64,000 nucleotides of DNA from Candidatus Babeliales bacterium. Lineage in GTDB: Bacteria > Babelota > Babeliae > Babelales > JABCYS01. Of the stretch, positions 28,266 to 48,843 are shown in pieces; the first letter of the stretch is position 1, and each line of letters starts with the position of its first letter. The translations under genes and the position numbers were made by a program. The stretch covers positions 27,810 to 91,809 of the forward strand of contig JAFGJD010000005.1 of the NCBI GenBank assembly GCA_016929235.1. The letters run 5' to 3'. Below the pieces are notes generated by a model. That model saw only the letters and a program-made list of their open reading frames with translations, had not been told where the DNA came from and did not search any database.

Positions 28266-28754
28266 ATGAAAATGCAGTACATGCACAAGGGAGTAGATGG
28301 TATGTTCAACCGGAGAAATGTGCGCATCCTATGGGCGATTTTGGGATATTGTCATGTTATGGCAGTAGAACCTGCTTCTGTCGAGAACAGCCATGCTGTG
28401 CTTGTATTTGATCGGTTATTTCCAGAAACAGCATATAGTATTGCCTTCAAACAGTGCGTTACGATGTGGCAAACATTGCGAGCGCGTCGTGGTCTTGGGA
28501 TATCTGAAGAGCAAACCGGCGAGTTGGTTGACCATCTTGTCGCGCTTCACGGAGCTGTTGATTGCGTTATTGAACAAAGAAGTTGCTTGCTGGATGATAT
28601 TGAGTATTTATCTGACGTTGTTAGTACCATTGCAGATGAACATACGGGAAGTATTCCCAATGAACAAGATAGAACGGTCATTTGTTCACGAGTACTGTTA
28701 GAGCGGTTGCAGAAAAAATTAGAGGATGTTGTGGCTGCATGTGAGCGTACTTAA
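28266..28754 (+). CDS. hypothetical protein with signal-like N-terminus
   Basis: 162 aa. The start is uncertain (an alternative is ATG 28302, MFNRRNVRILWAILGYCHVMA). No family recognised. Confidence 0.45.
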   Translation: MKMQYMHKGVDGMFNRRNVRILWAILGYCHVMAVEPASVENSHAVLVFDRLFPETAYSIAFKQCVTMWQTLRARRGLGISEEQTGELVDHLVALHGAVDCVIEQRSCLLDDIEYLSDVVSTIADEHTGSIPNEQDRTVICSRVLLERLQKKLEDVVAACERT

Positions 28755-30040
28755 AAATGCCACGTCATATTGACTTCGCCAGCGGCTCCACCAGTCATAG
28801 TATTAAAGATTCTTTGCCCTCCCACAGGAATGTTCATAAGGAATGTAACATTCGGCATTGCGGTGTTTCCCTCAGCTCCTAAATCGAATTCCCAGACAAT
28901 ATGAATTACATGCATAGACCATGATTGTAGTTGTTCATCTCCATTGACCACTGGATAGGGAAATGTTCCGGTATTACTTGGTAAATATTTTGTTGAAAGT
29001 CGTTGATTAAATGAGTAGGCAGTGGTCCACGAAAATGCATCATGGATATGATCAAGTTTAACATAGGCACCAAGGTGCCAGACGGTTCCTGGACGAACAA
29101 GTGCCGTTCCCTTGGCTAGCTTAATAAACCCATTTTGTAATGAACTGGTGCGCATGCGCACTATTTTTTCTTTTTCACTAAAGATAATGCCACCAAGGTT
29201 GGCTCCAACAGTTAGCCACTCAAATGCACCCAATGATGCGTCAATCGAAAAGGGGAATCCATAGTGACCGTTGTACCCTGTGGGGAGATCAAATACTGAA
29301 TTCTCGTTTTTTTCATGGCCAGTTGGAAGCAGGATTCCGGTCTTGATTGTTGCATCGATGTAATCAAGTTCTCGAGTATCTTGATAGTTGGTGGTCCAGC
29401 CTGCCATGATTGTAATATCACCAAACCCAGTTGTTTCAACGCGTCCAGCAGTTAATCCATAGTGAGCGAGAATGGTTTGATACCCTCCAAGAAAATCCAG
29501 CCATGTCTGAGTATATCGATGAGGCTCAATATTGTCGGCAGGTGTCTTATCATTAAAGCCGATCATTTCAATTTTGAGCTGTCGTATTGGCATATAGACT
29601 TCTCCAAAGAATCCCTTTGTAAAATTCTGTTGAACAAGTAGCGCCCCCTCAAACAGAGAAAATTGACCAAAATATTTTACTTGGCCAAAAGTCCCACGGT
29701 CAGGGAGATCATTAAGATTATTGACCAGAGTTTCGAGAGGATTTCCGGCAGAGACACTAGGGACGTTGTCGCCTATGTGATGGAGATTCTCAAAGCCATA
29801 GAGATTAAGTAGAGTGGACTCCTTGTTTCCTGAGCTATTACGGCTGGTAGATGCAGAGCCGCCGGTCAGGAGCATCGCAGCTGTGGAGAGGCTTGGGCGT
29901 TCGAATCTCGGTTCACCCCAAAAAAGGGGTGGGCGATAAAAATGGGCATTATCCCGGCAGATGGCCATATGAAAACATGTCATGAGCGGGAATAAAGAAA
30001 GCGCCTTAAGCGCCCTAATAAAGCCTCGACCCAGTTTCAA
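28751..30040 (-). CDS. putative outer-membrane beta-barrel protein
   Basis: 429 aa. Alternating hydrophobic pattern. C-terminal aromatic beta-signal ...EVNMTWHF. TTG start, and the signal region is uncertain. Confidence 0.45.
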   Translation of the reverse strand: MKLGRGFIRALKALSLFPLMTCFHMAICRDNAHFYRPPLFWGEPRFERPSLSTAAMLLTGGSASTSRNSSGNKESTLLNLYGFENLHHIGDNVPSVSAGNPLETLVNNLNDLPDRGTFGQVKYFGQFSLFEGALLVQQNFTKGFFGEVYMPIRQLKIEMIGFNDKTPADNIEPHRYTQTWLDFLGGYQTILAHYGLTAGRVETTGFGDITIMAGWTTNYQDTRELDYIDATIKTGILLPTGHEKNENSVFDLPTGYNGHYGFPFSIDASLGAFEWLTVGANLGGIIFSEKEKIVRMRTSSLQNGFIKLAKGTALVRPGTVWHLGAYVKLDHIHDAFSWTTAYSFNQRLSTKYLPSNTGTFPYPVVNGDEQLQSWSMHVIHIVWEFDLGAEGNTAMPNVTFLMNIPVGGQRIFNTMTGGAAGEVNMTWHF

Positions 30041-31524: not shown

Positions 31525-32592
31525 TTACCTTAAATAGATCGCCAAAGTAATCTCAATGAAAATCAACAGTGCGATTAACAGCGATAGTAAATCTTCTCGT
31601 GCGCCGTCAATGCGGTTGAAGTATACCGTTCGGACATCTTTGATGATGGCTAGTTTTTTATCGATTGAATCCTTCCAGCTCTTGAGATCTAATTTGTCTA
31701 CTAGCAACGAATAGATCTCGGTAAAGTAGGGTTCTCCGACGAGTTTGATACTACTTTCTAGTCGTTCTGTAATTACAGATATATCAACTTTGAGCCGTCC
31801 TAGATCACCAATTGGATGTGTTGAGCCTACAAATGGTAGATATGCCTTGAAGGGAGGCTTTGTTGCTTCTTGTTCATAGACATTATAAAGCTGTCGATCT
31901 AACACGCGATCAAAATACTGAAGCTCAAGCTTGTGTAAGTTTGAGAACTCGAATAGATCAAGAATTTCATAATATTCTGCGTCGTACGTGAACGCGGCTT
32001 CGGTATCAATAATGATCAGATCGCCACGATAGTATCCGGTTGCATCAGCAAGGATCTCTTCTTTTTGGAATTCAGATAATGATTCAGTTTCAAATCGTAG
32101 CGCTGACGCGATGATACCACCGTACTTGTTTTTCAATTCAGTGGCCGACACTTCTGGGTTTGGATCGACCTGGATTACAAAGTAGGACGAACGAAGATGA
32201 AAGAAATGTGGCTGCTTAATAAAATCTTTAATCTTTTTATATACAAGGACCGCATCGCTGTGACTTTGTTTTTGTGAATCATTATAAATAGTAATCAGCT
32301 TTTTCCTGATATTGTCGAGTGTATCATTAAACGGAATTTGATAGGTTAACGACAATACGCCAAAGTGGTGTAGCTTGCTGCTTACACATCTAGAACGAGC
32401 ATTGTGTGGATGTGGCAACTCAATTGAAAGTGGCGCATGATAGTTTTTAAAATACTTTGGCTGTGATAGCGGGAGAAGCTGCACGCGCTGTGATTCTTTG
32501 ATGGAGTCAAGATTAATTTCATCACCAAAATCAAATGCGTGGAATATAAAAAGATTTCCAGAAAAAACATAATCGTTCTTGTGTATTGTCAT
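31525..32592 (-). CDS. hypothetical protein with C-terminal TM helix (possibly DUF155/RMD1-like)
   Basis: 355 aa. The C-terminal LLSLLIALLIFIEITLAIYL resembles the DUF155 tail. Weak call. Lies 4 nt upstream of the methyltransferase. Confidence 0.35.
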   Translation of the reverse strand: MTIHKNDYVFSGNLFIFHAFDFGDEINLDSIKESQRVQLLPLSQPKYFKNYHAPLSIELPHPHNARSRCVSSKLHHFGVLSLTYQIPFNDTLDNIRKKLITIYNDSQKQSHSDAVLVYKKIKDFIKQPHFFHLRSSYFVIQVDPNPEVSATELKNKYGGIIASALRFETESLSEFQKEEILADATGYYRGDLIIIDTEAAFTYDAEYYEILDLFEFSNLHKLELQYFDRVLDRQLYNVYEQEATKPPFKAYLPFVGSTHPIGDLGRLKVDISVITERLESSIKLVGEPYFTEIYSLLVDKLDLKSWKDSIDKKLAIIKDVRTVYFNRIDGAREDLLSLLIALLIFIEITLAIYLR

Positions 32593-32602
32593 GATGTATT
32601 CC

Positions 32603-34423
32603 TTATTTTTTCAGGATGCTTAGGAATGCTTCTTGTGGTACATCCACATTGCCGATTTTTTTCATACGTTTTTTACCGGCTTTTTGTTTTTCAAGTAATT
32701 TTCGTTTTCGTGTGATATCGCCGCCATAACATTTGGCAATCACGTCTTTGCGTAACGGTGATAGCGTTTCGCGTGCAAGAACTTTTGAGCCAATAGCCGC
32801 CTGGATAGCAACCTGGAATAATTGTCGTGGAATTACCTTGCGCAAGCGTTGAACCATATCACGACCAATATAATATGCGTTATCTCTATGTGTGATAAAT
32901 GTGAGTGCATCAACTGCTTTGCCATTTAAAAGAATATCCATTTTGACTAAGTCGGCTGGTTCGTAACCTGATTCTTCATAATCAAAGCTTGCATAGCCCG
33001 AGGTTAGTGACTTGAGTTGATCATAAAAATCTGTAGCAACTTCAGTCAGTGGTAATTTGTATCTGAGAATAAGTCTGTTTTCGGTCAGAAATCGCATATC
33101 GAGTTGCTGCCCGCGTTTTTCCGTACACAGCTTGATAATGTTACCGAGATACTGTTGTGGAAGAATGATGGTTGCATCAATCATGGGTTCATAGATGACA
33201 TCGATTTTGTTTGGTTCGGGGAAATCCGCTGGATTTTCTATATCAATCATTTTATCTGTGTTGGCGAGTTTAATTTTATAAAGAACGTTTGGTGCTGTCG
33301 CAATGACAGACATGCCATATTCTTGTTCTAGTCGTTCTTTGAATACGTCCATGTGCAGCAGGCCAAGAAATCCGCAGTGGAACCCGACACCTAGTGCTGC
33401 GGATGTTTTCTTTTGTACGGACACACTCGCATCATTGAGTGTCAATTTTTCAATAGCTTCCCTGAGCTGTTCAAACTCCGTTGTATCAACAGGATAGATT
33501 CCTGCAAACACCATTGGCTTTGCCGGTTTGAATCCTGGGAAAGCCTTGCCGATATTGGTTGCGTGGAAGATGGTATCTCCGACACGAGCTTCCTGCACGG
33601 TTTTCATCCCGGTAATGATGTATCCAACTTGTCCTGCATATAATGCATCAGTTGGTGTTTGATCTGGATGCATCAGACCAAGTTCGAGAATTTCATACTT
33701 TTTACCACTTTGTGCAAGTGTGACTGTATCGCCTTTTTTCAGTACTCCGTTTTTGAGTGCAACCAGACAGACAACGCCTCGATAATCGTCATACCATGAA
33801 TCGAATAATAAGGCTTTGAGTGGTTCTGCTAAAGCGCCTTGTGGCGCGGGGATATGTTCGATGATGGCATCAAGAACATCTGTCATTCCCTGTCCCGTTT
33901 TGGCAGAAGCAAGAATGATATCTTTTTGTTCGAAGTCGAACAATGTTTTCATTTCACCCATGACTCGTTTTGGGTCTGCATTACTCATATCAATTTTGTT
34001 GATAATAGGGATAATGCTGAGATCTTGATCAAAGGCGAGATAAAAGTTTGCCATAGTTTGAGCTTGTACGCCTTGGCATGCATCAACAAGTAGAAGCGCT
34101 CCCTGGCAAGCATACAATGATCGTGAGACTTCATAGCTAAAATCGACGTGGCCTGGAGTATCAATCAAGTTCAACAAATATTGCTCACCCTTATAGGTAT
34201 AGAACATAGATGCAGTTTGTGCTTTCACGGTAATGCCACGTTCTTTTTCTACCTGGAGCTTGTCTAAAAATTGTTCGTTTTTTGTTCTGGTAGATACCGT
34301 GCCCGTGATTTCCAAAAGTCGATCAGAAAGGGTCGATTTTCCGTGATCGATATGTGCAATCACAGAAAAATTCCTGATGCGCTCAGGCGGGAATGACTGT
34401 AAATCTTTACTAGGTAATGCCAT
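32603..34423 (-). CDS. lepA: translation elongation factor 4
   Basis: 606 aa. G-motifs AHIDHGKST, DTPGHVDF and NKID. LepA-specific C-terminal domain. Confidence 0.95.
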   Translation of the reverse strand: MALPSKDLQSFPPERIRNFSVIAHIDHGKSTLSDRLLEITGTVSTRTKNEQFLDKLQVEKERGITVKAQTASMFYTYKGEQYLLNLIDTPGHVDFSYEVSRSLYACQGALLLVDACQGVQAQTMANFYLAFDQDLSIIPIINKIDMSNADPKRVMGEMKTLFDFEQKDIILASAKTGQGMTDVLDAIIEHIPAPQGALAEPLKALLFDSWYDDYRGVVCLVALKNGVLKKGDTVTLAQSGKKYEILELGLMHPDQTPTDALYAGQVGYIITGMKTVQEARVGDTIFHATNIGKAFPGFKPAKPMVFAGIYPVDTTEFEQLREAIEKLTLNDASVSVQKKTSAALGVGFHCGFLGLLHMDVFKERLEQEYGMSVIATAPNVLYKIKLANTDKMIDIENPADFPEPNKIDVIYEPMIDATIILPQQYLGNIIKLCTEKRGQQLDMRFLTENRLILRYKLPLTEVATDFYDQLKSLTSGYASFDYEESGYEPADLVKMDILLNGKAVDALTFITHRDNAYYIGRDMVQRLRKVIPRQLFQVAIQAAIGSKVLARETLSPLRKDVIAKCYGGDITRKRKLLEKQKAGKKRMKKIGNVDVPQEAFLSILKK

Positions 34424-34535: not shown

Positions 34536-35198
34536 CTAGCTTCCCAAATTATTCAGATCCGCTGCAATGTCATTCATAGGATCATACGTGATAGTATTGT
34601 CAGTACTCATCTGGATGAGATGGTTCATGATGCGCTCCCAGAGTTGATCTTGTAGCTCATAGGCGTATGGATGAAATGCCCCGAGGACTTCCAATGCGTT
34701 GAGGCCCTCTTTGTTTCTATGTTGTGCGTCTTCAGGCGGAAGATTTTGTAAAAGAACTTCAATGACCTTTGCCTCTGCTGGGATTCCGAACCACAAATCA
34801 CGGGGCACACTTATTAGCATGGGGAAGCTTACCAGCCATGCATAGACTGCCATCGTAGGAGATTTTTCAGAAATAAGATAAGCGAGGGCAGAAAGTAAGG
34901 TGCTTCCCATAAGTGAATTGGTGATGCGCCTTCCGAAATCTTTGCCAGTTCCTTTTATTTTGCTGATCATAGAGTTTCCATAGATACGCATTGCTGCCGT
35001 CAGTGGTGGATCCTCATATTGGCCCACACGAGTTGAAAGATTGGCACCACGCTGAATAGCATTGTGAACGAGCCTTGGCTTGCTTTGCATAATACCAGTC
35101 CATAGGTCACGCGTTGCTTGGGAGGGCGTCGCAGATATGGCCAGGTCGGTGCAGTTCCACAGAAATAGTACGGTTGCTACAAGATATGTTTGCTTCAT
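34536..35198 (-). CDS. hypothetical signal-peptide protein with ankyrin-like motifs and hydrophobic segments
   Basis: 220 aa. Signal MKQTYLVATVLFLWNCTDLAISA. ANK-like LVHNAIQRGANLSTRVGQYEDPPLTAAM and NKEGLNALEVL. The ATG directly abuts the stop codon of the Lon gene. Confidence 0.55.
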   Translation of the reverse strand: MKQTYLVATVLFLWNCTDLAISATPSQATRDLWTGIMQSKPRLVHNAIQRGANLSTRVGQYEDPPLTAAMRIYGNSMISKIKGTGKDFGRRITNSLMGSTLLSALAYLISEKSPTMAVYAWLVSFPMLISVPRDLWFGIPAEAKVIEVLLQNLPPEDAQHRNKEGLNALEVLGAFHPYAYELQDQLWERIMNHLIQMSTDNTITYDPMNDIAADLNNLGS

Positions 35199-37277
35199 TT
35201 ATACCTCTTGCTCTAAGAGTACAAGGTCAAATACCTGTCTCACATCATCTACAAAAAAGAGCTCGATATTATCGCTTAAGTCTTCTTTGCATTCTTCGAC
35301 ATCTTGGCGATTAGCTTCGGGTAGAATGATCTTAGTAATCCCGATTCGTTCTGCGCCAAGAATCTTTTCTTTGACCCCACCGATAGGAAACACGCGACCA
35401 GTTAAAGTCACTTCACCTGTCATAGCGAACGTGTTATTGACGGGCCGATTGGTGAGTGCTGATGCGATTGCTACCGTCATCGCAACACCAGCAGAATTGC
35501 CGTCTTTTGTAGCAGCGCTTGGTGCATGAATATACCAATCATAATTTTGTATTGCATCTCGGTCGACGCCGAAAATATCAATGTGTGATTTAATAAAATT
35601 CATAGAAACGTGTGCTGAATCAAGACATGTGTTTATCATGTTTCCAGTGATATGAAGCTGGCCTTTTCCAGATGACTTTTGCACTTCGAATGTCTTTACG
35701 TTGCCAAATCCCAGTGATGGAATTACGATCAAGCCATTTACTACACCGACGCGACTTTTTTGAATATATGCTTGCTCGAGGTCTGGATTATACCCTACGC
35801 CAAGAAAGGGAACAAGATTATTTGGCGTTAACGTGGGAAGTGTTCCTTGCTCAGCGAGTTGAAGCGCCGCTTTTGAGCATATAGTGCGCATTTGCTCTTC
35901 TAGCTTTCTTACGCCTGGTTCAATGGCATAGTGTTCTATGATGTGTTTCAGGGTTGCTTTATCTAAAACAAGTCCTTTTTCTCCCATACCTGTTTCCCGT
36001 AATACCTTAGGAATAATATGATGAGCCGCAATGTGGATTTTTTCATCGAGTGTGTAGCTATTAAACTCAACAATCTCCATGCGATCGAGTAATACTGGAT
36101 CAATGTCATATATGTTGTTGGCAGTGGCAATAAAGGTTACCTGTGAGAGATCAAAAGGAACATCGAGATAGTGATCTACAAATTGACTATTTTGTTCTGG
36201 GTCAAGTACTTCAAGGAGTGCAGCGGCAGGGTCCCCGTGCCATGAGTTTTCTCGTGCCAATTTGTCTACTTCATCAAGAAGAATGACGGGATTATTGGTT
36301 CCTGCAGCTTTAAGTGCTTTTAGGATATTGCCTGGCTGTGATCCGATGTAAGTTTTCTGGAATCCACGGATTGCGCTCTCTTCGTGTACGCCTCCCAGAG
36401 CAACTCGTTCAAATTTTTTACCAAGTCCGCGCGCGATTGAGCGTGCCAGCGTTGTTTTTCCTGTGCCTGGAGGGCCAGAAAAGCATAGAATTTGAGGTTT
36501 TGTATGATCACTAAATTGTTGAGTTGCGAGGTGTTCGAGGATTTTGTTTTTTGCTTTTTGAATTCCGTGGTGGTCTCGGTCAAGACTTTCCCTAACTTCA
36601 CCCAGTGTTGGCGCAGCATCGGTTGTTGTATTCCATGGAAGAGAAAAAAGGAATTTCAAAAATTCATGTTGCTTTGGGGCTTCATGGGCACTCATATTGC
36701 GCGAAAGTTTTTCGATTTCTTCGCGCACCCGTTGTTCAATTGTTTCAGGAAGATTCAATGCTTCGAGCTGTGCCAGATATATATCAGATTCTTGTGTGTT
36801 GAATAGAGCAGTTGTTTGTAGTTTGAGAACTAAGATGCTGAGTACGTCATCTAGGTTTGCTTTGTTGGCAAGATCGAGAGCCGTCTCACTTTCGTGGTTT
36901 TCGGCATTTAGTCTCGCATCAGGATAGAATGCTAAGAACCTGATGATGGCGAGTCGTTTTTGGTAAGCCGATTGAAAGGTTACCGGATCCGCATAGATAT
37001 GTTGGCGATGTTTACTAACCAAATCAGTTAAGACACGTGTTGCATAGATGAGGGGGGTATCACCATGTTCACCGTAATGTGCATTGATGGAGGCTCCTTC
37101 CTTGAGTGCATATTGAATAGTTTCGAGACTTCCTTGAGCAATTCCATAAAAGAGCGTTGCAGTTTTTTTCTGTTGCTCAAGACTCTCTGATTCATGCGCT
37201 TGCACAGTGGAAAGTGGCAACAAAAACATACTGAGGATAGTAAGCGAAATGCGAAATCGGTTCACGAGAGCCCCCAA
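35199..37277 (-). CDS. LonA-type ATP-dependent protease with signal peptide and ankyrin repeats replacing the LON N-domain
   Basis: 692 aa. Walker A GPPGTGKT, Walker B ILLDEVDK, catalytic Ser in KDGNSAG, Lys in IGGVKEK. N-terminus NRFRISLTILSMFLLPLSTVQA, then ANK repeats (YALKEGASINAHYGEHGDTPLIYATR; ETALDLANKANLDDVLSIL). The start is TTG 37277 or a nearby GTG. Confidence 0.85.
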   Translation of the reverse strand: MGALVNRFRISLTILSMFLLPLSTVQAHESESLEQQKKTATLFYGIAQGSLETIQYALKEGASINAHYGEHGDTPLIYATRVLTDLVSKHRQHIYADPVTFQSAYQKRLAIIRFLAFYPDARLNAENHESETALDLANKANLDDVLSILVLKLQTTALFNTQESDIYLAQLEALNLPETIEQRVREEIEKLSRNMSAHEAPKQHEFLKFLFSLPWNTTTDAAPTLGEVRESLDRDHHGIQKAKNKILEHLATQQFSDHTKPQILCFSGPPGTGKTTLARSIARGLGKKFERVALGGVHEESAIRGFQKTYIGSQPGNILKALKAAGTNNPVILLDEVDKLARENSWHGDPAAALLEVLDPEQNSQFVDHYLDVPFDLSQVTFIATANNIYDIDPVLLDRMEIVEFNSYTLDEKIHIAAHHIIPKVLRETGMGEKGLVLDKATLKHIIEHYAIEPGVRKLEEQMRTICSKAALQLAEQGTLPTLTPNNLVPFLGVGYNPDLEQAYIQKSRVGVVNGLIVIPSLGFGNVKTFEVQKSSGKGQLHITGNMINTCLDSAHVSMNFIKSHIDIFGVDRDAIQNYDWYIHAPSAATKDGNSAGVAMTVAIASALTNRPVNNTFAMTGEVTLTGRVFPIGGVKEKILGAERIGITKIILPEANRQDVEECKEDLSDNIELFFVDDVRQVFDLVLLEQEV

Positions 37278-37495: not shown

Positions 37496-40183
37496 ATGGA
37501 GCCTACCATTCACGGTCATGATGGAAATAGTTCAATTAAGCCAGTGCTGATTGAGGAGGAATTAAAGACCTCCTTTCTTGATTACGCGATGTCGGTAATT
37601 GTTAGTCGCGCAATACCTGATGTACGTGATGGCCTTAAGCCGGTCCATAGGCGTATTTTATATTCTATGTATCAATCAGGCTTCTTTTATAATAAGCCGC
37701 ACCGCAAGTCTGTTCGTGTTGTTGGTGACGTGCTTTCCAACTATCACCCCCATGGCGATGCTGCTGTGTACAATACAATGGTGGGGATGGTTCAAGAGTT
37801 TTCTAAACGATATCCATTACTTGACGGCCAAGGTAACTGGGGTTCTATTGATGGTGATAACGCAGCTGCTATGCGTTATACCGAAGTTCGTATGATGCGT
37901 ATTTCAGAAGAGCTACTTGCCGATCTTGGCAAAGAAACCGTTCCCTTTGTTCCTAACTTTGATGAATCGACCGTTGAGCCGACGGTGTTGCCAAGTAAAA
38001 TACCGAATCTTTTAGTAAATGGAACTGCCGGGATTGCCGTCGGTATGGCGACTGCGTTGCCGCCCCATAACTTGGGCGAAGTAATCGATGGCTGCTTAGC
38101 ATTGCTAGATAACAGTGCCATTTCTGATGAAGAATTATTTGACAAGATTCCTGCACCTGACTTTCCAACAGGTGGTATTATTTGTGGCAGAAGCGGTATC
38201 GTTCAGGCATATAGGACTGGGCGTGGCAATGTGATCCTTCGTGGTGTTATTGATGTTGAGGAAACCAAAAAGGGTACTTCGCTTATTGTGTCAGAGCTGC
38301 CATATCAAGTGAATAAGGCTGAGCTAACGATTAAGATTGCAAACCTCGTTAAGGACAAAATTATTGATGGTATCTCCAACATTCGCGACGAATCAAACAA
38401 AAAAGGCATACGTCTTGTTATTGATATCAAACGTGGGGAGAATCCTCAGGTTGTTTTAAACCAGCTTTATAAGTATACCGATCTTTCGACGTCGATTTCT
38501 TTCTTGATGTTAGCATTGCTTGATAATAAACCCTTGATCTTTACGTTACGTGATATGTTGCGTGAATTCTTGGTCCATCGTGAAGAGGTTGTATATAAGC
38601 GGACTCAGTTTGATCTGAATAAAGCACAGGCCCGTGAGCATATTCTTGCAGGTTTATTAATTGCGCTAGCTGATATCGATAATGTTATTGCATTGATCAA
38701 GAAATCTAAATCTGCGCCTGATGCTATTTTGGAATTGAATAAAAAATTCTTACTCAGTGATGAACAAAGCAAAGCCATCTTGGAAATGAAGCTTCAAAGG
38801 CTTACCGGACTTGAACGTGAAAAGATTCAAAATGAGATGGGAACGATCAAAGAGTTAATTAAAACACTCGAAAACATTCTTGAAAATCGTGACGTTTTGC
38901 ACGAAGAAATTCGTAAAGAGCTGCAAGAGATTAAAGACAAGTACGGTGACAAGCGTCGTAGCCGTATTGAAGGTGCTGTTGATATTCTCACAGAAGCAGA
39001 CTTGATTCCTGATGAAGAAGTGGTTGTAACGTTGACACGCAAGGGATATATCAAGCGTGTACCTCTCGAAATTTATAACGTACAACACCGTGGCGGGAAG
39101 GGAAAAATGGGCGCAGCAAAACTTGATGAAAAAGATGACTTCATTGAAGACGTATTTATAGCCCGCAATCACGACGAGCTACTCTTTTTCACTAACTACG
39201 GTCGCGTATACAGTTTGCCAACCTACGTGGTTCCTGAGGCTTCGCGCACAGCGCGCGGACGCGCTGTCATCAATATCCTCAAACTGAACGAGGGTGAACG
39301 TGTTGTAAAACTGTTGTGTACGCGTGATATGGAAGATAAGTTCATTGTTATGTTGTCGCGTAACGGTATTATCAAACGAACAGCAGCCTCTAGTTTTACT
39401 AAGATTCGTCAGACTGGTATTCGTGCCGTAACGCTTCGTGATTCCGACGAGCTCACATTCTGCTCCATTAGTAATGGCGACGATACTATCGTTATCGCAA
39501 CGGCAAACGGCCAAGGCATTCGATTCAAGGAAACAGAGGTTCGTGTCATGGGCCGCCAGGCCGCCGGTGTAATGGGAATTCGACTCAAGTCGGGAGATCA
39601 CGTTGTGGGGATGGAAGTTCTTTCAGATGAACGTGACATACTCTTTGCTACTGAGCGTGGTTACGGAAAGCGTACTCGTATGGAAGATTTCCGTGTTGCT
39701 CACCGTGGTGGCTATGGGGTCAGAACTATTCCGACGGATAGCAGAAATGGCAAGGTCATCGGGCTAGCAGTGGTTGGTGAAGAAGCAAGTATTCTTCTGA
39801 TCGATACGCTTGGTAAGATTATTCGCCTCTCTCCAAAGGAAATTAGGACCATGGGCCGTCAGGCAAAAGGTGTCCGTCTCATTAGGCTTGAGCCTGATCA
39901 GCAGCTTACAGCCGTGGTTGCCTTTGAGGAACAGGATGATTCTCCTGAAACTTCGGAAGCTGAACTACAAGAATCTTCACAAAAGGCCTCTGCTCCACAG
40001 GGTGCTGTCAAGGTTAAGATGAGTGGACCAGAAAACCCAACCGAATCGTTCTTTATGGGTGGTTATCCAGATGAGGATGGAGAGTCCGACTACATCTCTG
40101 GGGGTCTGAAAAAGGAGGCAAATGAGCAGCTTAAGCTGTTCGGCCCTGGTGATGATGTGGATGATGATGGATACGCCTTTTAG
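37496..40183 (+). CDS. gyrA: DNA gyrase subunit A
   Basis: 895 aa. YAMSVIVSRAIPDVRDGLKPVHRRILY, active-site Tyr context AAMRYTEVR, beta-pinwheel CTD and an acidic tail. Confidence 0.95.
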   Translation: MEPTIHGHDGNSSIKPVLIEEELKTSFLDYAMSVIVSRAIPDVRDGLKPVHRRILYSMYQSGFFYNKPHRKSVRVVGDVLSNYHPHGDAAVYNTMVGMVQEFSKRYPLLDGQGNWGSIDGDNAAAMRYTEVRMMRISEELLADLGKETVPFVPNFDESTVEPTVLPSKIPNLLVNGTAGIAVGMATALPPHNLGEVIDGCLALLDNSAISDEELFDKIPAPDFPTGGIICGRSGIVQAYRTGRGNVILRGVIDVEETKKGTSLIVSELPYQVNKAELTIKIANLVKDKIIDGISNIRDESNKKGIRLVIDIKRGENPQVVLNQLYKYTDLSTSISFLMLALLDNKPLIFTLRDMLREFLVHREEVVYKRTQFDLNKAQAREHILAGLLIALADIDNVIALIKKSKSAPDAILELNKKFLLSDEQSKAILEMKLQRLTGLEREKIQNEMGTIKELIKTLENILENRDVLHEEIRKELQEIKDKYGDKRRSRIEGAVDILTEADLIPDEEVVVTLTRKGYIKRVPLEIYNVQHRGGKGKMGAAKLDEKDDFIEDVFIARNHDELLFFTNYGRVYSLPTYVVPEASRTARGRAVINILKLNEGERVVKLLCTRDMEDKFIVMLSRNGIIKRTAASSFTKIRQTGIRAVTLRDSDELTFCSISNGDDTIVIATANGQGIRFKETEVRVMGRQAAGVMGIRLKSGDHVVGMEVLSDERDILFATERGYGKRTRMEDFRVAHRGGYGVRTIPTDSRNGKVIGLAVVGEEASILLIDTLGKIIRLSPKEIRTMGRQAKGVRLIRLEPDQQLTAVVAFEEQDDSPETSEAELQESSQKASAPQGAVKVKMSGPENPTESFFMGGYPDEDGESDYISGGLKKEANEQLKLFGPGDDVDDDGYAF

Positions 40184-45022: not shown

Positions 45023-46780
45023 TTAGTTATAGGCATAGCCACATTTGCCCCAGACACCCCAGCTACGGACTGCCTTGTTCTTAGCTCCAAGCTCAGCTTC
45101 TGCGCCAAGATCGAAGAAGATAGGGCCATGATTGTCGAAGAACTTAGCTTCGCCGACATCCCATGTGTAACCAATGTTACCAAATACCTTATGAGCAACC
45201 ATGCGAGGACGCATTCCGCTGTTCACATCAACAACATCGCTGAGGGTATCAGTGGTTGCAATGACGTTGGTCAATGCAGCTGCTGTACCGTTACCGGCTG
45301 TGTTGTCAGTGTGCTTGATGCTGCCCATACCATATGTCGTTGAGTAGTCAATGTAGTTATCGCTTACATACTGAACACCCTTGACACCGAAGTAACGAAC
45401 GGTTGATGTTCCGCAGCATTCATCGCAGTCGCTGTAGGTGCATGGATCACAAAGATTTGCTGGACAATCGAAGCTTTCGCAATCGCGTGCCTTGATTTCG
45501 TAACCGAGATCAAAGTTCCAGTTCTTGTGTTTGAGGTTGAAGTAGAAGAGACCGTCTACTAACCAATCAAATCCTGATTTGACACATACGGTGAAAATAT
45601 CAGCAAAGTTACGGAGGCGACCATTGTAGGTCAATGTTCCAGCTACGTCTTCAAATTCCTTCATCAAGAGGTAACGTGACCACTTGGTGTCGGTTGGACG
45701 ATAGGTGCCGGTCTTCATATCGAAGAGACGGCATTCTTCGCCCTTGAACACGTGGGTTACGTTTGCATCACCGAAGAAGTACATTGAGGTGGTTTGTTCA
45801 TCATTTTCAAACAGACGAACTTGACCTTGAAGACCACCACCTAATTGCCAACGACGGTAACCAATGCGAGGATCAAAGATTGAGCGGTTTACTTCCATTG
45901 TTCCGGTTGGGAACACGGTGCGTGCGTACAATCCAAGATTTCCGCGATCACCATCTACCAAGGTATATCCAAGATGGAGAGGAATATCTGCTATGCCAAC
46001 CTTATCTTGTGGGCAGTTGCAGATAATACGTCCTGCTTGGAGAGGAATATCCTTATCACCAAAGGTATATTTACCGCTGAATGCTTTGCAAATCGAATCG
46101 ATGGTTCTTGGTCCAGCATAGTTACCACGGTTGACGTAGAGACCTGTAGTGGTTGTAAGACGGTTTTCCATTACGTTTGGAGCGAAAGCTGAGCCACCAC
46201 GCTGGGTTGTGGTTTCGCAGGTTTCCATGGTCCAGATGGTGTAAGCTATAGGTAGCTTTGACCACATGTAAAGACCTTCTGCCCAACGATCCATGCCGAG
46301 ATAGAAGCTTGGCTCAAAGATGAAGTTTTCAATCTTTGGTTTAAGCTCTAATGTTCCGCGGAATGTTGGAGACATACCGAGATCTTCAGCACGGATGTCA
46401 ATAGTACCATCTAAGTTTTCACCAACAACGAATTGGTTTCCATTGGTGCATTCGCATGCAGGTGAGAAGTAACGACCTAGACGTTCTGGATTAAAGCTGT
46501 GTTGATATTCAAATGCTGCTGCTTTTACCCAGTTCCAATCTTCGAGACCATCTATGTTCATAAGATGGCCTTGACCCATGTAATCACGAGCTCTATTCAT
46601 ACCTTGTGAGAAAGGAAGAATATCAGGACGTGCACATACATAGTTGTCTTTGCCACAACCATAGTGTGTATAGGTATCGCTGCAGTCGGAATCGCAAGCG
46701 TCGTCACAATCAGCCAAAGCGCGTCCCGCCATACCTGCTATTAAAGCAAGGCAGAAAACGCTTCTTAACGTTAATTTCAT
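45023..46780 (-). CDS. cysteine-rich outer-membrane protein, paralogue A
   Basis: 585 aa. Signal MKLTLRSVFCLALIAGMAGRALA. Acidic Cys clusters DCDDACDSDCSD...GCGKDNYVC and DCESFDCPANLCDPCTYSDCDECC. Beta-strand-like alternation. Strong RBS AAGGAG. Confidence 0.7.
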   Translation of the reverse strand: MKLTLRSVFCLALIAGMAGRALADCDDACDSDCSDTYTHYGCGKDNYVCARPDILPFSQGMNRARDYMGQGHLMNIDGLEDWNWVKAAAFEYQHSFNPERLGRYFSPACECTNGNQFVVGENLDGTIDIRAEDLGMSPTFRGTLELKPKIENFIFEPSFYLGMDRWAEGLYMWSKLPIAYTIWTMETCETTTQRGGSAFAPNVMENRLTTTTGLYVNRGNYAGPRTIDSICKAFSGKYTFGDKDIPLQAGRIICNCPQDKVGIADIPLHLGYTLVDGDRGNLGLYARTVFPTGTMEVNRSIFDPRIGYRRWQLGGGLQGQVRLFENDEQTTSMYFFGDANVTHVFKGEECRLFDMKTGTYRPTDTKWSRYLLMKEFEDVAGTLTYNGRLRNFADIFTVCVKSGFDWLVDGLFYFNLKHKNWNFDLGYEIKARDCESFDCPANLCDPCTYSDCDECCGTSTVRYFGVKGVQYVSDNYIDYSTTYGMGSIKHTDNTAGNGTAAALTNVIATTDTLSDVVDVNSGMRPRMVAHKVFGNIGYTWDVGEAKFFDNHGPIFFDLGAEAELGAKNKAVRSWGVWGKCGYAYN

Positions 46781-47181: not shown

Positions 47182-48843
47182 TTAGTTGTAACTTACGCCG
47201 AGTTTGCCCCAGACACCCCATTGGCGTAACGCCTTGTTCTTATCACCAAATTCTACTTCAACGCCAAGGTTGCTATATATAGGATAGTCGCGGTCTTCCC
47301 ACGTATAACCAAACGTTCCGTAGATTTTGTGTGAAAGCATACGCGGTCTGCGTCCGCTCTCTACATCAACGATACTGGTGAGTGTATCTGCTGTGCCAAA
47401 TGTATTTGTAGCAGTTGCGGCAGCAGCGGCATGGTTGCCAGTGCTTGCATCAGAGATGGTTGCTGTTGGTTGAATGTTGGTGTTGCTTACAAGTTGTGTT
47501 CCCTTGACGCCGTACCTGAGGGTTGATGTAGAAGTGCATGAACAATCTTCACAATCGTCACCATAGGCTGGGTCACAAATCTTGAGACATTCACAGTCGA
47601 AGTCTTCGCATGCGCGGGCCTTTAATTCATAGCCGAGATTTCCAATCCAACCTTCGTGTTTTAACTCGAGGAAGAAGAGGAAATCAACCATCCAGTTAAA
47701 GCCAGATTTGATGCAGACATTGAAGATGTCAGCAAAGTTGCGGAGACGTCCCGTGTACGCGAGATTTGCATCAAATTCTTTTAGGAGAAGATAGCGAGAC
47801 CAGGTTCCATTATTTAATTTATCAAATAGACGGCATTCATCGTTTTTGAAGATGTGTGTTACATACAAGTCAGTGAATGCATTCAAAGAAGTTTCATCAT
47901 CTTTATTGTATAATTCAAGACGACCTTGTACTCCACCACCGAGCTGCCAACGACGGTATCCAACGCGAGGGTCAAAGATCGATTGGCGCACTTCTTTCGT
48001 TCCCGTTGGGAATACAGTCCTGAGGTAGAGACCGAGATATCCTTTGTCACGGGTTAGAAAGTTCCAGCCAAGATGTACCGGAATATCAGCAACGCCGGTC
48101 TTGGAATCACCACAAGATGGAATGCGACCTGCTTGCAGTGCAAGATCCTTATCGCCCCATGTTACGGTTCCTGCAAATGCTTGCTTGATGCTCTTTGCTT
48201 GAACGCGGACAGGATCATTTCCAACATCCATAAGATTTTCTAAGAAGTTGGTCCCACCAGCTTGTGATGAGGTTTCACAAATCTCAAGATCCCAATTGGT
48301 ATAGTTAACTGGTATTTTAAACCAGAGATACATACCTTCAACCCAGCGATCCAATCCAAGATAGAAACTGGGTTCAAATACAAAGTTTTTGATTTCAGGG
48401 CGTAGACAGAGTGTTGCTCGGAAGGTTGGAGAAAGTCCGAGATCTTCGCCACGTACGTGTACGCCGCTCGTATTGTCTGGGCCTACGGTAAAACAGTTAT
48501 TACAGCAACTTGGTGACAGATGTTTACCAAGGCGTTCTTTGTCGAAATTTTGATTGTACGCAAATGCTGCAGATAGAGCCCAGTTCCAATCATCGCGGTC
48601 GATGAGATTTTGTAAATGAGCTTGTCCTGCATAATCACGAGCGCGATTTTCGCCTTGTGAGAATGGAAGGAAGTCTGGACGAGCACATGCATCGACACCC
48701 TCAGCGCATCCACGAGCCCCGTTACATGTTGTCGTCGAGCTGCATGAAGTGCAATTGACGGCACAGCAGCCATCATTATCACAGTCTGCATACGCTGCAT
48801 TAACACATGCAACGAACAAGCCCAAGCATAACAATCGCTTCAT
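47182..48843 (-). CDS. cysteine-rich outer-membrane protein, paralogue B
   Basis: 553 aa. Signal MKRLLCLGLFVACVNAAYA. Shares long blocks with paralogue A (ARPDFLPFSQGENRARDY, FDPRVGYRRWQLGGG, WSRYLLLKEF, GRLRNFADIFNVCIKSGF) and the same two Cys clusters. Confidence 0.7.
   Translation of the reverse strand: MKRLLCLGLFVACVNAAYADCDNDGCCAVNCTSCSSTTTCNGARGCAEGVDACARPDFLPFSQGENRARDYAGQAHLQNLIDRDDWNWALSAAFAYNQNFDKERLGKHLSPSCCNNCFTVGPDNTSGVHVRGEDLGLSPTFRATLCLRPEIKNFVFEPSFYLGLDRWVEGMYLWFKIPVNYTNWDLEICETSSQAGGTNFLENLMDVGNDPVRVQAKSIKQAFAGTVTWGDKDLALQAGRIPSCGDSKTGVADIPVHLGWNFLTRDKGYLGLYLRTVFPTGTKEVRQSIFDPRVGYRRWQLGGGVQGRLELYNKDDETSLNAFTDLYVTHIFKNDECRLFDKLNNGTWSRYLLLKEFDANLAYTGRLRNFADIFNVCIKSGFNWMVDFLFFLELKHEGWIGNLGYELKARACEDFDCECLKICDPAYGDDCEDCSCTSTSTLRYGVKGTQLVSNTNIQPTATISDASTGNHAAAAATATNTFGTADTLTSIVDVESGRRPRMLSHKIYGTFGYTWEDRDYPIYSNLGVEVEFGDKNKALRQWGVWGKLGVSYN

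What the first reader, a model, noticed from the sequence alone, without database searches (positions are those of the whole stretch)
34536..37277. LonA protease with its substrate-recognition N-domain replaced by a signal peptide and ankyrin repeats, coupled to an ANK/TM partner
**Seen in the sequence**
- Residues ~170-692 are a complete LonA.
- They contain the helical linker LPETIEQRVREEIEKLSRNMS...LPWN, Walker A/B, and the catalytic Ser (KDGNSAG) and Lys (IGGVKEK). The E. coli contexts are PKDGPSAG and IGGLKEK.
- The usual ~200-aa LON N-terminal (PUA-like) domain that selects substrates is absent.
- In its place are a signal-peptide-like segment (NRFRISLTILSMFLLPLSTVQA|HE) and at least two ankyrin-type repeats.
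- The next gene starts with no spacer after the Lon stop. It encodes a 220-aa protein with a signal peptide, ANK-like motifs and hydrophobic segments.

**Inference**
- An export signal on an ATP-dependent protease makes little sense for the ATP-free periplasm.
- It is therefore either an N-terminal membrane anchor with a cytoplasmic body, or the protein is delivered into a host cytosol.
- In the host, ankyrin repeats, which are typical eukaryote-interaction modules, would retarget Lon to host substrates.
- Either way this is a re-targeted Lon with a dedicated partner.
Basis: partly seen in the sequence, partly recalled or inferred. Interest (0 to 1): 0.7.

Follow-up and report, generated by a model that had tools for sequence, protein, structure and literature searches.

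The report
Signal-peptide ankyrin-Lon protease with partner
A bacterium from a group that lives inside protists (Babeliales) encodes a Lon ATP-driven protease whose usual substrate-choosing head is replaced by an export signal and three ankyrin repeats. It is always followed by a small ankyrin partner gene, so this is a conserved, undescribed variant that probably works outside the bacterial cytoplasm.

Summary
Window 35199-37265 (-) encodes a 688-aa protein (GTG start). It has a 23-residue Sec-type signal peptide, a three-repeat ankyrin domain and an intact LonA core. The core equals residues ~250-end of canonical Lon and keeps every ATPase and Ser-Lys protease motif. The LON N-domain is absent.

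The next gene (34536-35198, zero spacer) encodes a 220-aa protein. It has a signal peptide and divergent ankyrin repeats related to those of the Lon.

The exact proteins are in NCBI as "AAA family ATPase" and "hypothetical protein" from a Candidatus Babeliales MAG.

About nine divergent orthologues exist. All have the signal peptide and the ankyrin domain. All eight loci examined have the partner gene in the same position. Five of the seven other loci keep gyrA upstream, and five keep lepA downstream.

The pair evolves much faster than its neighbours: 37-44% and 25-37% identity, against 70-75% for LepA and GyrA.

Charge distribution and the short hydrophobic core argue for export, not for a cytoplasmic body on a membrane anchor. 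In an ATP-importing intracellular parasite, neither the periplasm nor the host cytosol lacks ATP.

I found no description of this architecture in the literature. It is a new variant of a known kind, and its localisation is untested.

The parts
35199..37265 (-). ANK-Lon coding sequence, 688 aa plus stop. GTG start at 37265-37263; TAA stop at 35201-35199.
   Evidence: ORF list. Start choice. The identical NCBI protein MBN1549486.1 is 688 aa.
37271..37275 (-). GGGGG Shine-Dalgarno-like run, 5 nt upstream of the GTG start.
   Evidence: Most genes in the window carry an AAGGA/GGAG-type site at this distance. The alternative TTG and ATG starts have none.
37197..37265 (-). Signal peptide, residues 1-23 (MNRFRISLTILSMFLLPLSTVQA | HE).
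   Evidence: n-region +2/-0, hydrophobic core KD11 2.42 but KD19 1.40, V-Q-A at -3/-1, acidic mature N-terminus. The same layout is in all 9 orthologues and 3 related Lons. Housekeeping proteins of the window fail the same test.
36801..37163 (-). Ankyrin-repeat domain, residues ~35-155. Three repeats; the middle one has elongated helices.
   Evidence: The profile hits only ANK/DARPin chains. AF2 pLDDT 90. All Foldseek hits listed are ANK or designed repeat proteins, e.g. 1n0q TM 0.84, rmsd 1.5 A. In the 1.84-billion library the profile also gives many repeated matches in giant proteins, presumably ankyrin-rich though their identity was not checked.
35835..36785 (-). LonA three-helix bundle plus AAA+ module and lid, residues ~161-477. 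Walker A at 264, pore-loop Tyr (QKTYIG), Walker B at 327, sensor-1 at 378, Arg finger at 392, sensor-2 (EPGVR).
   Evidence: Pfam AAA and Lon_lid. TIGR00763. Alignment to 3m6a, 7p6u and others. Motif scan.
35217..35822 (-). S16 Lon protease domain, residues ~482-683. Catalytic Ser in KDGNSAG, Lys in IGGVKEK.
   Evidence: Pfam Lon_C 8e-52. Alignment to Lon structures. The dyad is conserved in all relatives.
35204..35207 (-). GAGG ribosome-binding site of the partner gene. It lies inside the last codons of the Lon gene.
34536..35198 (-). Partner gene, 220 aa: signal-peptide-like N-terminus, an ANK repeat related to the Lon's first repeat, two moderately hydrophobic central segments, and C-terminal ANK-like repeat(s).
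   Evidence: ORF. Identical to NCBI MBN1549485.1. Orthologues sit directly downstream of ANK-Lon in the 7 other loci. hhalign to the Lon ANK domain gives 97.4% probability, E 1e-11. PDB profile hits are all ANK. Hydropathy.

Best explanation
**What it is.** A LonA paralogue of a Babeliales (Dependentiae) intracellular bacterium, rebuilt for work outside the bacterial cytoplasm.

**Proposed mechanism.**
1. A cleavable Sec signal peptide sends the unfolded chain across the inner membrane.
2. The mature protein keeps a complete, self-sufficient Lon chamber: three-helix bundle, AAA+ unfoldase and Ser-Lys protease.
3. It carries a three-repeat ankyrin domain where canonical Lon carries the N-domain that recognises damaged or degron-tagged proteins. 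Substrate choice is therefore handed to a specific protein-binding module.
4. A co-translated, co-exported ankyrin protein, related to the Lon's own first repeat, acts with it. It could be an adaptor, an anchor or a keeper.
5. ATP comes from the host, because these bacteria live in host cytoplasm and import host ATP through their envelope.

**Location.** I favour action at the host side, reached by type II secretion or vesicles and directed at host or co-secreted proteins. A purely periplasmic role is the close second.

**Shown:** the domain architecture, intact catalytic motifs, conservation of the signal peptide, ankyrin domain and partner, and fast evolution relative to neighbours.

**Inferred:** export, signal-peptide cleavage, the ATP source, the role of the ankyrin domain, the role of the partner and the final compartment.
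For: - **Architecture.**
- **Catalytic competence.** Walker A/B, sensor-1, Arg finger, sensor-2, Ser and Lys are present in all 9 orthologues.
- **Export signal.** All 9 orthologues have a basic n-region, a hydrophobic core too short for a membrane helix in most (KD19 below 1.6 in 6 of the 9 orthologues; 1.74-1.97 in three) and a mostly acidic start of the mature chain. Most have a -3/-1 small-residue site.
- **Controls for the signal test.** LepA, GyrA, ArgS and GltX of the same window are negative. A canonical Lon next to a signal-peptide Lon in L004 has a normal LON domain and, read by eye, no signal (N-terminus printed).
- **Conserved operon.** The partner follows the Lon in all 8 loci; gyrA lies upstream in 5 of the other 7 loci and lepA downstream in 5. 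Stop and start are 0-6 nt apart or overlapping in 7 of 8.
- **Partner.** It is an ANK protein related to the Lon's ANK domain.
- **Evolutionary rate.** ANK-Lon is 37-44% identical and the partner 25-37%, against LepA 73-75% and GyrA 70-72% in the same loci. This is as expected for host-interface proteins.
- **Literature, organism biology.** Dependentiae import host ATP. In Chromulinavorax 44% of proteins, and 78% of ankyrin proteins, carry signal peptides. In Babela 79 of 126 ankyrin proteins do, and type II is the only secretion system (PMC6561590, PMC4378268, PMC4776705).
- **Literature, Lon biochemistry.** A Lon lacking residues 1-241 keeps ATPase and peptidase activity but loses recognition of damaged substrates (PMC8087443).
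- **Further exported-looking ATPases.** A second AAA+ protein with a signal-like N-terminus lies in the same window (11621-13180). Three other signal-peptide Lons with tandem AAA+ modules exist.
Against: - There is no experimental or SignalP-grade prediction of cleavage or export. My signal test is a hand-made heuristic.
- No bacterial AAA+ protease is known to work outside the cytoplasm.
- A 450-kDa hexamer is an awkward type II secretion cargo, so it would have to assemble after export.
- Single-copy, syntenic, vertical inheritance in a housekeeping neighbourhood looks more like a core envelope function than a typical expanding effector family.
- The partner's structure could not be modelled (pLDDT 36), so its role is guesswork.
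- The presence of a canonical lon, NTT translocases or type II secretion genes in this particular genome could not be checked. None is in the 64-kb window.
Confidence: 0.42

Rival explanations
1. A periplasm-resident Lon. The protein is exported by Sec but stays in the periplasm, possibly held at the inner membrane by the partner's hydrophobic hairpin. There it unfolds and degrades or processes exported bacterial proteins, using host ATP that diffuses through the outer membrane on its way to the ATP/ADP translocases.
For: - The export evidence is the same as for the best explanation.
- The locus is single-copy and syntenic in a housekeeping neighbourhood across divergent genomes.
- The partner has two central hydrophobic segments.
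- Periplasmic ankyrin proteins exist; Bd3460 of Bdellovibrio is among the Foldseek hits.
- A very large share of Dependentiae proteins is exported (PMC6561590), which would create a need for envelope quality control.
Against: - The ANK domain and the partner diverge fast, which fits a changing host target better.
- Published readings of signal-peptide ANK proteins in this phylum favour secretion to the host (PMC4378268).
- No precedent exists for a periplasmic AAA+ protease.
- The partner's hydrophobic segments are weak (KD19 1.25-1.7), poorly conserved, and below my threshold in at least one orthologue.
Confidence: 0.28
2. A membrane-anchored cytoplasmic Lon. The N-terminal hydrophobic segment is an uncleaved anchor with the N-terminus outside. 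The ANK-Lon body stays in the cytoplasm at the membrane, as with FtsH or archaeal LonB.
For: - ATP supply would be unproblematic.
- Membrane-tethered AAA+ proteases are well known.
- In three orthologues (P0127, P0180, P0215) the hydrophobic stretch is stronger, with KD19 1.74-1.97.
Against: - The positive-inside rule points the other way in all 12 sequences: +1 to +3 before the hydrophobic segment and none negative. In 8 of 12 the 15 residues after it are net acidic; P0161 is +2 and P0002 and P0003 are 0.
- In most members the core is 11-14 residues with a helix-breaking Pro/Ser/Thr tail and an AXA-type site.
- The protein has no other membrane segment.
Confidence: 0.1
3. An ordinary cytoplasmic Lon paralogue. 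The 'signal peptide' is an artefact of choosing too early a start, and translation really begins at the internal ATG (residue 17 of the ORF), as one automatic gene call assumed (P0001, 676 aa).
For: One metagenome gene caller chose that ATG. It is the only ATG candidate.
Against: - The ATG has no ribosome-binding site, while the GTG has one.
- NCBI's annotation uses the GTG.
- A start at the ATG would still leave half of the hydrophobic core (MFLLPLSTVQA).
- The other eight orthologues have a full basic-plus-hydrophobic N-terminus (P0273's gene call is truncated; its cluster-mate P0125 shows the full one), in eight of the nine starting at an ATG called by the source.
Confidence: 0.04

Closest known systems
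Canonical LonA (E. coli Lon, B. subtilis LonA, Meiothermus taiwanensis LonA, human LONP1)
   Same: Residues ~161-688 align end to end with LonA from its residue ~250: three-helix bundle, AAA+ module, lid and S16 protease. All ATPase motifs, the pore-loop Tyr and the LonA-type Ser-Lys site are kept. Identity to canonical Lons over this part is 45-47%.
   Different: The LON N-terminal domain and its long helical region (about 250 residues) are absent. A signal peptide and ankyrin repeats stand in their place. The TIGR00763 score is below the equivalog cut-off (551.8 against 608). The family evolves much faster than neighbouring housekeeping genes.
Skd3 / human CLPB, a mitochondrial intermembrane-space disaggregase (PMC9584538)
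   Same: It has the same design logic: an N-terminal targeting signal, then an ankyrin-repeat domain, then a single HCLR-clade AAA+ ring. It works in a compartment outside the 'bacterial-type' cytoplasm that still contains ATP. Its ankyrin domain is needed for substrate handling.
   Different: Skd3 has a ClpB-type AAA+ module and no protease domain. It is eukaryotic. There is no evidence of common descent of the fusion, so the resemblance is in architecture only.
Signal-peptide ankyrin proteins of Dependentiae (Babela massiliensis, Chromulinavorax destructans)
   Same: The phylum is the same, and so is the signal-peptide-plus-ANK layout. Such proteins are read as secreted host-interaction factors (PMC4378268, PMC6561590).
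   Different: Those are mostly stand-alone repeat proteins in large, expanding families. Here the ANK module is fused to an ATP-dependent protease, is single-copy, and is syntenic across genomes.
Signal-peptide Lons with tandem AAA+ modules (P0006 from a Babeliales MAG; P0002 and P0003 from metagenomes)
   Same: They have a signal-peptide-like N-terminus, a LonA-type core and intact motifs. In a neighbour-joining tree they group with the ANK-Lons against canonical Lons in 177 of 200 bootstraps. P0006 also has Pfam-significant ANK repeats.
   Different: They carry two AAA+ modules. P0002 and P0003 have a non-ANK N-region with no Pfam hit. No homologous partner gene follows them.
Membrane-bound AAA+ proteases (FtsH, archaeal LonB)
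   Same: An AAA+ protease associated with a hydrophobic N-terminal or internal segment.
   Different: LonB's membrane hairpin is inserted inside the AAA+ module, and its active-site motif differs. FtsH has two membrane helices and a metalloprotease. Here there is a single short signal-type segment and a LonA core.
PTEX HSP101 of Plasmodium (from my own knowledge, not tested here)
   Same: An intracellular parasite exports a signal-peptide-bearing AAA+ unfoldase beyond its own plasma membrane, to work in the host-facing compartment.
   Different: It is eukaryotic, ClpB-like, part of a translocon, and has no protease domain.

Membership tests
LonA (endopeptidase La, MEROPS S16, TIGR00763) | N-terminal LON substrate-binding domain (PF02190) | tested here: not met
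   No PF02190 hit even at E<=1. Alignment to Lon structures and to TIGR00763 starts at their residue ~250. The N-region is an ANK fold.
LonA (endopeptidase La, MEROPS S16, TIGR00763) | AAA+ module with Walker A/B, sensor-1, Arg finger, sensor-2, pore-loop Tyr, and the Lon lid | tested here: met
   Pfam AAA 2.5e-26 and Lon_lid 8.6e-12. Motifs found.
LonA (endopeptidase La, MEROPS S16, TIGR00763) | C-terminal S16 protease with a Ser-Lys dyad and a LonA-type motif (PKDGPSAG) | tested here: met
   Lon_C 8.3e-52. KDGNSAG and IGGVKEK align with the catalytic Ser and Lys of Lon structures. Only Pro to Asn differs.
LonA (endopeptidase La, MEROPS S16, TIGR00763) | Score above NCBIfam's equivalog cut-off | tested here: not met
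   551.8 bits against a cut-off of 608.05. NCBI names the identical protein only 'AAA family ATPase'.
LonA (endopeptidase La, MEROPS S16, TIGR00763) | Hexameric, ATP-dependent proteolysis | not testable with these tools
   Needs biochemistry. The retained part equals the AAAP construct, which is active in vitro (PMC8087443).
Ankyrin-repeat domain | Sequence match to ANK profiles | tested here: met
   The single sequence is below Pfam's cut-off (Ank_2 23.8 against 27.3). The 9-sequence family profile hits 352 PDB sequences at E<=0.01. All 60 listed are ankyrin-repeat, DARPin or related designed repeat proteins; best E 3e-23.
Ankyrin-repeat domain | Stacked helix-turn-helix repeats with beta-hairpin loops | tested here: met
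   AF2 model pLDDT 90, pTM 0.82. Foldseek top hits are all ANK. The three-repeat designs 1n0q and 2xen superpose at TM 0.84-0.85 (normalised to target) and rmsd 1.5-1.6 A over 111 columns.
Sec (type I) signal peptide | Basic n-region, hydrophobic core of 7-15 residues, small residues at -3/-1, no early positive charge in the mature chain | tested here: met
   Hand-made test. The window protein has +2, KD11 2.42, VQA|HE and net -1 after the site. All relatives show the same layout. Cytoplasmic housekeeping proteins are negative. SignalP and DeepTMHMM were not available.
Sec (type I) signal peptide | Actual cleavage and translocation | not testable with these tools
   Needs reporter fusions or N-terminal proteomics.
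LonB (membrane-bound Lon) | Membrane hairpin inserted in the AAA+ module; LonB-type active-site motif | tested here: not met
   No 19-residue window above KD 1.8 anywhere in the window protein. TIGR00764 and TIGR02902 match only the protease domain, at 93-106 bits against cut-offs of 517-723.
BREX BrxL and other defence-system Lon-like proteins | Full-length match to BrxL or another PADLOC model, and defence-gene neighbours | tested here: not met
   BrxL scores 50.6 bits over the protease domain only. TIGR02653 scores 49 against 628. The neighbours are gyrA, lepA and other housekeeping genes.
Secreted effector of Dependentiae (type II or vesicle cargo) | Presence outside the bacterium during infection | not testable with these tools
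   Only the general pattern from the literature applies (PMC4378268, PMC6561590).

The most novel reading that the evidence does not exclude
This family is a bacterial AAA+ protease that operates outside the bacterial cytoplasm, which I found no precedent for. It would be a Sec-exported, ankyrin-guided Lon that runs on the host's ATP, either in the periplasm of an energy parasite or in the host cell, together with a co-exported ankyrin partner. Along with the other signal-peptide AAA+ proteins seen here, it would mean that ATP-importing intracellular bacteria have broken the textbook rule that the bacterial envelope has no ATP-driven proteostasis.
Probability: 0.55. Interest if true: 0.8.

Novelty: new variant of a known kind. 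Interest (0 to 1): 0.62.

Why it matters
Lon is one of the best-studied ATP-dependent proteases. Its N-domain is regarded as the element that chooses substrates, and bacterial AAA+ proteases are regarded as strictly cytoplasmic or facing the cytoplasm. This family is a natural experiment that swaps the N-domain for a specific protein-binding module, adds an export signal and keeps every catalytic motif.

If export is real, several things follow:
- ATP-dependent unfolding and degradation would occur beyond the inner membrane in bacteria that steal host ATP.
- It would be a candidate mechanism for remodelling host or envelope proteins in Dependentiae, a widespread but barely studied phylum.
- It would be an independent parallel to mitochondrial Skd3.
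- It would give protein engineers a natural template for retargeting Lon with repeat-protein binders.

Tried and rejected
- **GTDB genome scan.** I scanned the 185,579 species-representative genomes with the N-terminal family alignment. It found 71 pattern matches, none of them a relative. The window's genome and its close relatives are therefore not in that collection. I could not look for a canonical lon, NTT translocases or type II secretion genes in the same genome.
- **Hand-made DNA patterns.** I considered degenerate DNA patterns and rejected them, because thousands of chance hits were expected.
- **Metagenome scan.** 258 pattern matches, no relative.
- **Partner structure.** A 3-sequence alignment gave pLDDT 36, which is unusable, so I ran no fold search on it.
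- **Partner homologue searches.** They returned only three proteins.
- **Promoter and terminator scan.** Counts were no better than in shuffled sequence.
- **Rfam.** No RNA family in the region.
- **Defence-system reading.** Rejected: only weak, partial matches to BrxL and others.
- **Lipoprotein or Tat signals.** Rejected by eye: no lipobox Cys at +1 and no twin-arginine motif in the family (sequences).
- **Divergent LON N-domain.** Rejected by profile and fold searches.
- **Literature.** Searches for ANK-Lon fusions, exported or periplasmic Lon, or secreted Lon-like effectors found nothing specific.


Full report
**What is there.**
- The finding covers two adjacent genes on the minus strand, between lepA (32603-34423, -) and gyrA (37496-40183, +).
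- The larger ORF can start at TTG 37277, GTG 37265 or ATG 37229. An in-frame TAG lies just upstream.
- Most genes of the window carry an AAGGA/GGAG-type ribosome-binding site 5-9 nt before the start. Only the GTG has such a site (GGGGG, 5 nt upstream).
- The identical protein is in NCBI as MBN1549486.1, 'AAA family ATPase [Candidatus Babeliales bacterium]'. It is 688 aa, which is the GTG start. The downstream protein is MBN1549485.1, 'hypothetical protein'.
- A metagenome gene caller chose the ATG instead (P0001, 676 aa).
- The source is therefore a MAG of the order Babeliales, phylum Dependentiae/TM6. All characterised members of that group are intracellular parasites of protists (PMC4378268, PMC6561590, PMC4776705).

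**The Lon core.**
- Pfam finds AAA (2.5e-26), Lon_lid (8.6e-12) and Lon_C (8.3e-52), and no LON N-domain.
- TIGR00763 'lon' matches residues 165-687 to model positions 256-795. It scores 551.8 bits, below the 608 cut-off.
- Solved Lon structures align in one stretch from their residue ~250 to the end. These are B. subtilis 3m6a, M. taiwanensis 4ypl/7fd4, the E. coli/Yersinia-type 6u5z and human LONP1.
- Walker A, pore-loop Tyr, Walker B, sensor-1, Arg finger, sensor-2, catalytic Ser (KDGNSAG) and Lys (IGGVKEK) are all present.
- The retained part corresponds to the 'AAAP' construct of MtaLonA (residues 242-793). That construct keeps wild-type ATPase and peptidase activity and degrades disordered casein, but cannot handle damaged folded substrates. 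That task belongs to the N-domain (PMC8087443).

**The N-terminal 160 residues.**
- Residues 1-23 are MNRFRISLTILSMFLLPLSTVQA|HE. There are two basic residues, a hydrophobic core that scores high over 11 residues (KD 2.42) but not over 19 (1.40), V-Q-A at -3/-1, and an acidic start of the mature chain.
- Alone, the following region only brushes Pfam's ankyrin models (23.8 bits against 27.3).
- A 9-sequence family profile of this region hits 352 PDB sequences at E<=0.01. Every one of the 60 listed is an ankyrin-repeat, DARPin or related designed repeat protein; best E 3e-23.
- In the 1.84-billion-protein library the same profile, extended to the Lon linker, gives dozens of repeated matches inside giant proteins, presumably ankyrin-rich though I did not check what they are.
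- An AlphaFold model is confident (pLDDT 90, pTM 0.82). Foldseek returns only ankyrin proteins. Three-repeat designs superpose at TM 0.84-0.85 and rmsd 1.5-1.6 A.
- The domain is three ankyrin repeats, the middle one with elongated helices. It is not a divergent LON domain.

**The family.**
- A search of 5.8 billion proteins returned three proteins with the same layout: P0004 (692 aa), P0005 (684 aa) and P0007 (728 aa), at 43-46% identity.
- The exhaustive profile search added P0125/P0273, P0127, P0161, P0180 and P0215.
- Among the best 150 of 1.84 billion cluster representatives, about seven belong to this family. It is rare.
- Every member has a basic n-region (+1 to +3, no acidic residue) and a short hydrophobic core. 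In most the chain after it is net acidic, and most have a small-residue cleavage site.
- Every member keeps all ATPase and protease motifs.
- The same crude signal test is negative for LepA, GyrA, ArgS, GltX and other cytoplasmic proteins of the window.

**The partner and the operon.**
- The 220-aa ORF starts directly after the Lon stop (...GAGG TA TAA ATG). Its ribosome-binding site lies inside the Lon gene.
- In all seven other loci I could inspect, a 208-229-aa protein without a Pfam hit follows the Lon. It overlaps by 1-4 nt or sits 4-5 nt away in six of them, and 62 nt away in one.
- The wider order is conserved: gyrA (divergent), ANK-Lon, partner, lepA, MJ0711_N-like gene.
- The partners align with one another at 22-37% identity.
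- Their profile hits only ankyrin proteins in the PDB (best E 7e-7). Three of seven weakly match Pfam Ank_4.
- Profile-profile comparison with the Lon's own ankyrin domain gives 97.4% probability, E 1e-11, over the first repeat.
- Each partner has a signal-peptide-like N-terminus. Most have two central segments of moderate hydrophobicity (KD19 1.25-1.7) that are poorly conserved in sequence and length.
- The structure prediction failed (pLDDT 36). Whether these segments form a membrane hairpin or an extended helical insert in the repeat stack remains open.

**Evolutionary behaviour.**

| Protein, compared with the window across the same loci | Identity |
|---|---|
| LepA | 73-75% |
| GyrA | 70-72% |
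| MJ0711_N-like protein | 62-67% |
| ANK-Lon, whole protein | 37-44% |
| ANK-Lon, ANK region | 27-37% |
| ANK-Lon, Lon core | 41-46% |
| Partner | 25-37% |

- Within this one lineage, the Lon core has diverged as much as it differs from canonical Lons of other phyla (44-46%).
- The pair is therefore vertically inherited and never lost, yet it evolves quickly.

**Relatives with other heads.**
- Three longer proteins also have signal-peptide-like N-termini and LonA cores, but with two AAA+ modules.
- P0006 comes from a Babeliales MAG and has Pfam-significant ankyrin repeats.
- P0002 and P0003 have an N-region without a Pfam hit.
- P0003 lies immediately after a canonical Lon. That Lon has a normal LON domain and, read by eye, no signal peptide.
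- In a neighbour-joining tree of the last AAA+ module plus protease, all signal-peptide Lons separate from 16 canonical Lons in 177 of 200 bootstraps. Strict monophyly of the ANK-Lons alone gets only 79 of 200.
- This hints at one origin of exported Lons followed by swaps of the head domain. The method and the sampling are both weak.

**How it most likely works.**
- The sequence features say the chain is handed to Sec and that the body leaves the cytoplasm.
Dependentiae lack energy metabolism and import host ATP with inner-membrane ATP/ADP translocases (PMC4776705, PMC6561590). Host ATP must therefore be present in their periplasm whenever they are inside a host. This step is my inference.
- In Babela, 79 of 126 ankyrin proteins carry signal peptides. 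They are read as secreted into the amoeba through the only secretion system present, type II (PMC4378268).
- In Chromulinavorax, 44% of all proteins and 78% of ankyrin proteins carry signal peptides. Outer-membrane vesicles are seen early in infection (PMC6561590).
- I therefore read ANK-Lon as an exported Lon whose substrate choice is made by the ankyrin domain and its ankyrin partner.
- I put export at about 0.7. Of that, about 0.42 is action on the host side and about 0.28 is a periplasmic role.
- The fast evolution of the ANK parts favours a host-side target. The stable single-copy synteny and the partner's hydrophobic segments favour an envelope role.
- An N-out anchor with a cytoplasmic body gets about 0.1, because it contradicts the charge distribution. 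A start-codon artefact gets about 0.04.

**Comparison with what is known.**
- By membership tests it is not a canonical LonA. The N-domain is absent and the equivalog cut-off is missed. It clearly works with a LonA engine.
- It is not LonB: there is no membrane insert and the motif is wrong.
- It is not a BREX or other defence Lon.
- The nearest design analogue is mitochondrial Skd3/CLPB, with a targeting signal, ankyrin repeats and an AAA+ ring in the intermembrane space (PMC9584538). Skd3 has no protease and is unrelated in origin.
- I found no paper that describes an ankyrin-Lon fusion or an exported bacterial Lon. That search covers open-access full text only.
- Databases name these proteins generically: 'AAA family ATPase', 'ATP-dependent Lon protease', 'S16 family serine protease'.

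**Verdict.** It is a new variant of a known kind, of moderate-to-high interest, and the interesting part (extracytoplasmic ATP-dependent proteolysis) is still inference.

**Main gaps.**
- No proper signal-peptide or topology predictor was available.
- There is no complex model of the Lon with its partner.
- I had no access to the rest of the genome.
- The collection scans for further loci found nothing.

Noticed in passing
window 11621-13180 (-) and 13196-14590 (-): A second AAA+ ATPase with an apparent export signal. The 519-aa protein starts MINRKYCLFFSFLVSIPSMHA|MED. It continues with a long charged coiled-coil-like region, one hydrophobic segment (~200-220) and a classic-clade AAA domain (Pfam AAA 2e-25; best PDB matches are Cdc48/p97 D2). 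From memory, the layout and the motif RLGQPQLVRESSR recall mitochondrial ATAD3; I did not test this. The upstream 464-aa neighbour also has a signal-like N-terminus and no Pfam hit.
   Followed up: partly
L004 5512-7860 and 8001-11381; L003 8001-11243: Signal-peptide Lons with two tandem AAA+ modules. P0003 (1126 aa) sits directly after a canonical Lon (782 aa, LON domain, no signal). P0006 (1080 aa, Babeliales MAG GCA_035944115.1) has Pfam-significant ankyrin repeats in front. In an NJ tree they group with the ANK-Lons (177 of 200 bootstraps).
   Followed up: partly
window 45023-46780 (-) and 47182-48843 (-): Two paralogous proteins, 50% identical over 595 columns. Each has a signal peptide, a Cys-rich N-terminal stretch (ADCDDACDSDCSD / ADCDNDGCCAVNC), no Pfam hit and an aromatic C-terminus (..YAYN / ..VSYN). 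They may be cysteine-rich outer-membrane proteins.
   Followed up: partly
window 5921-8689 (-): A 922-aa protein with about five membrane-like segments and a Sigma54_activat-type AAA domain at residues 651-779. This is an unusual combination.
   Followed up: no
window 20741-22933 (-), 60545-62533 (+), 28751-30040 (-): Large ORFs (730, 662 and 429 aa) with no Pfam hit. The first two have signal-peptide-like N-termini, in line with the high share of exported orphan proteins reported for Dependentiae.
   Followed up: no
window 31525-32592 (-): The 355-aa gene after lepA gave no Pfam hit at E<=1e-5 in my scan. Its syntenic counterparts in related loci are recorded with PF27233 (MJ0711_N). They are 62-67% identical to it.
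   Followed up: partly
window 35199-37277 (-): Public gene calls for the identical sequence disagree on the start. A Logan assembly call begins at the internal ATG (676 aa) and cuts the signal peptide in half. NCBI uses the GTG (688 aa). The mechanical ORF begins at a TTG (692 aa).
   Followed up: yes
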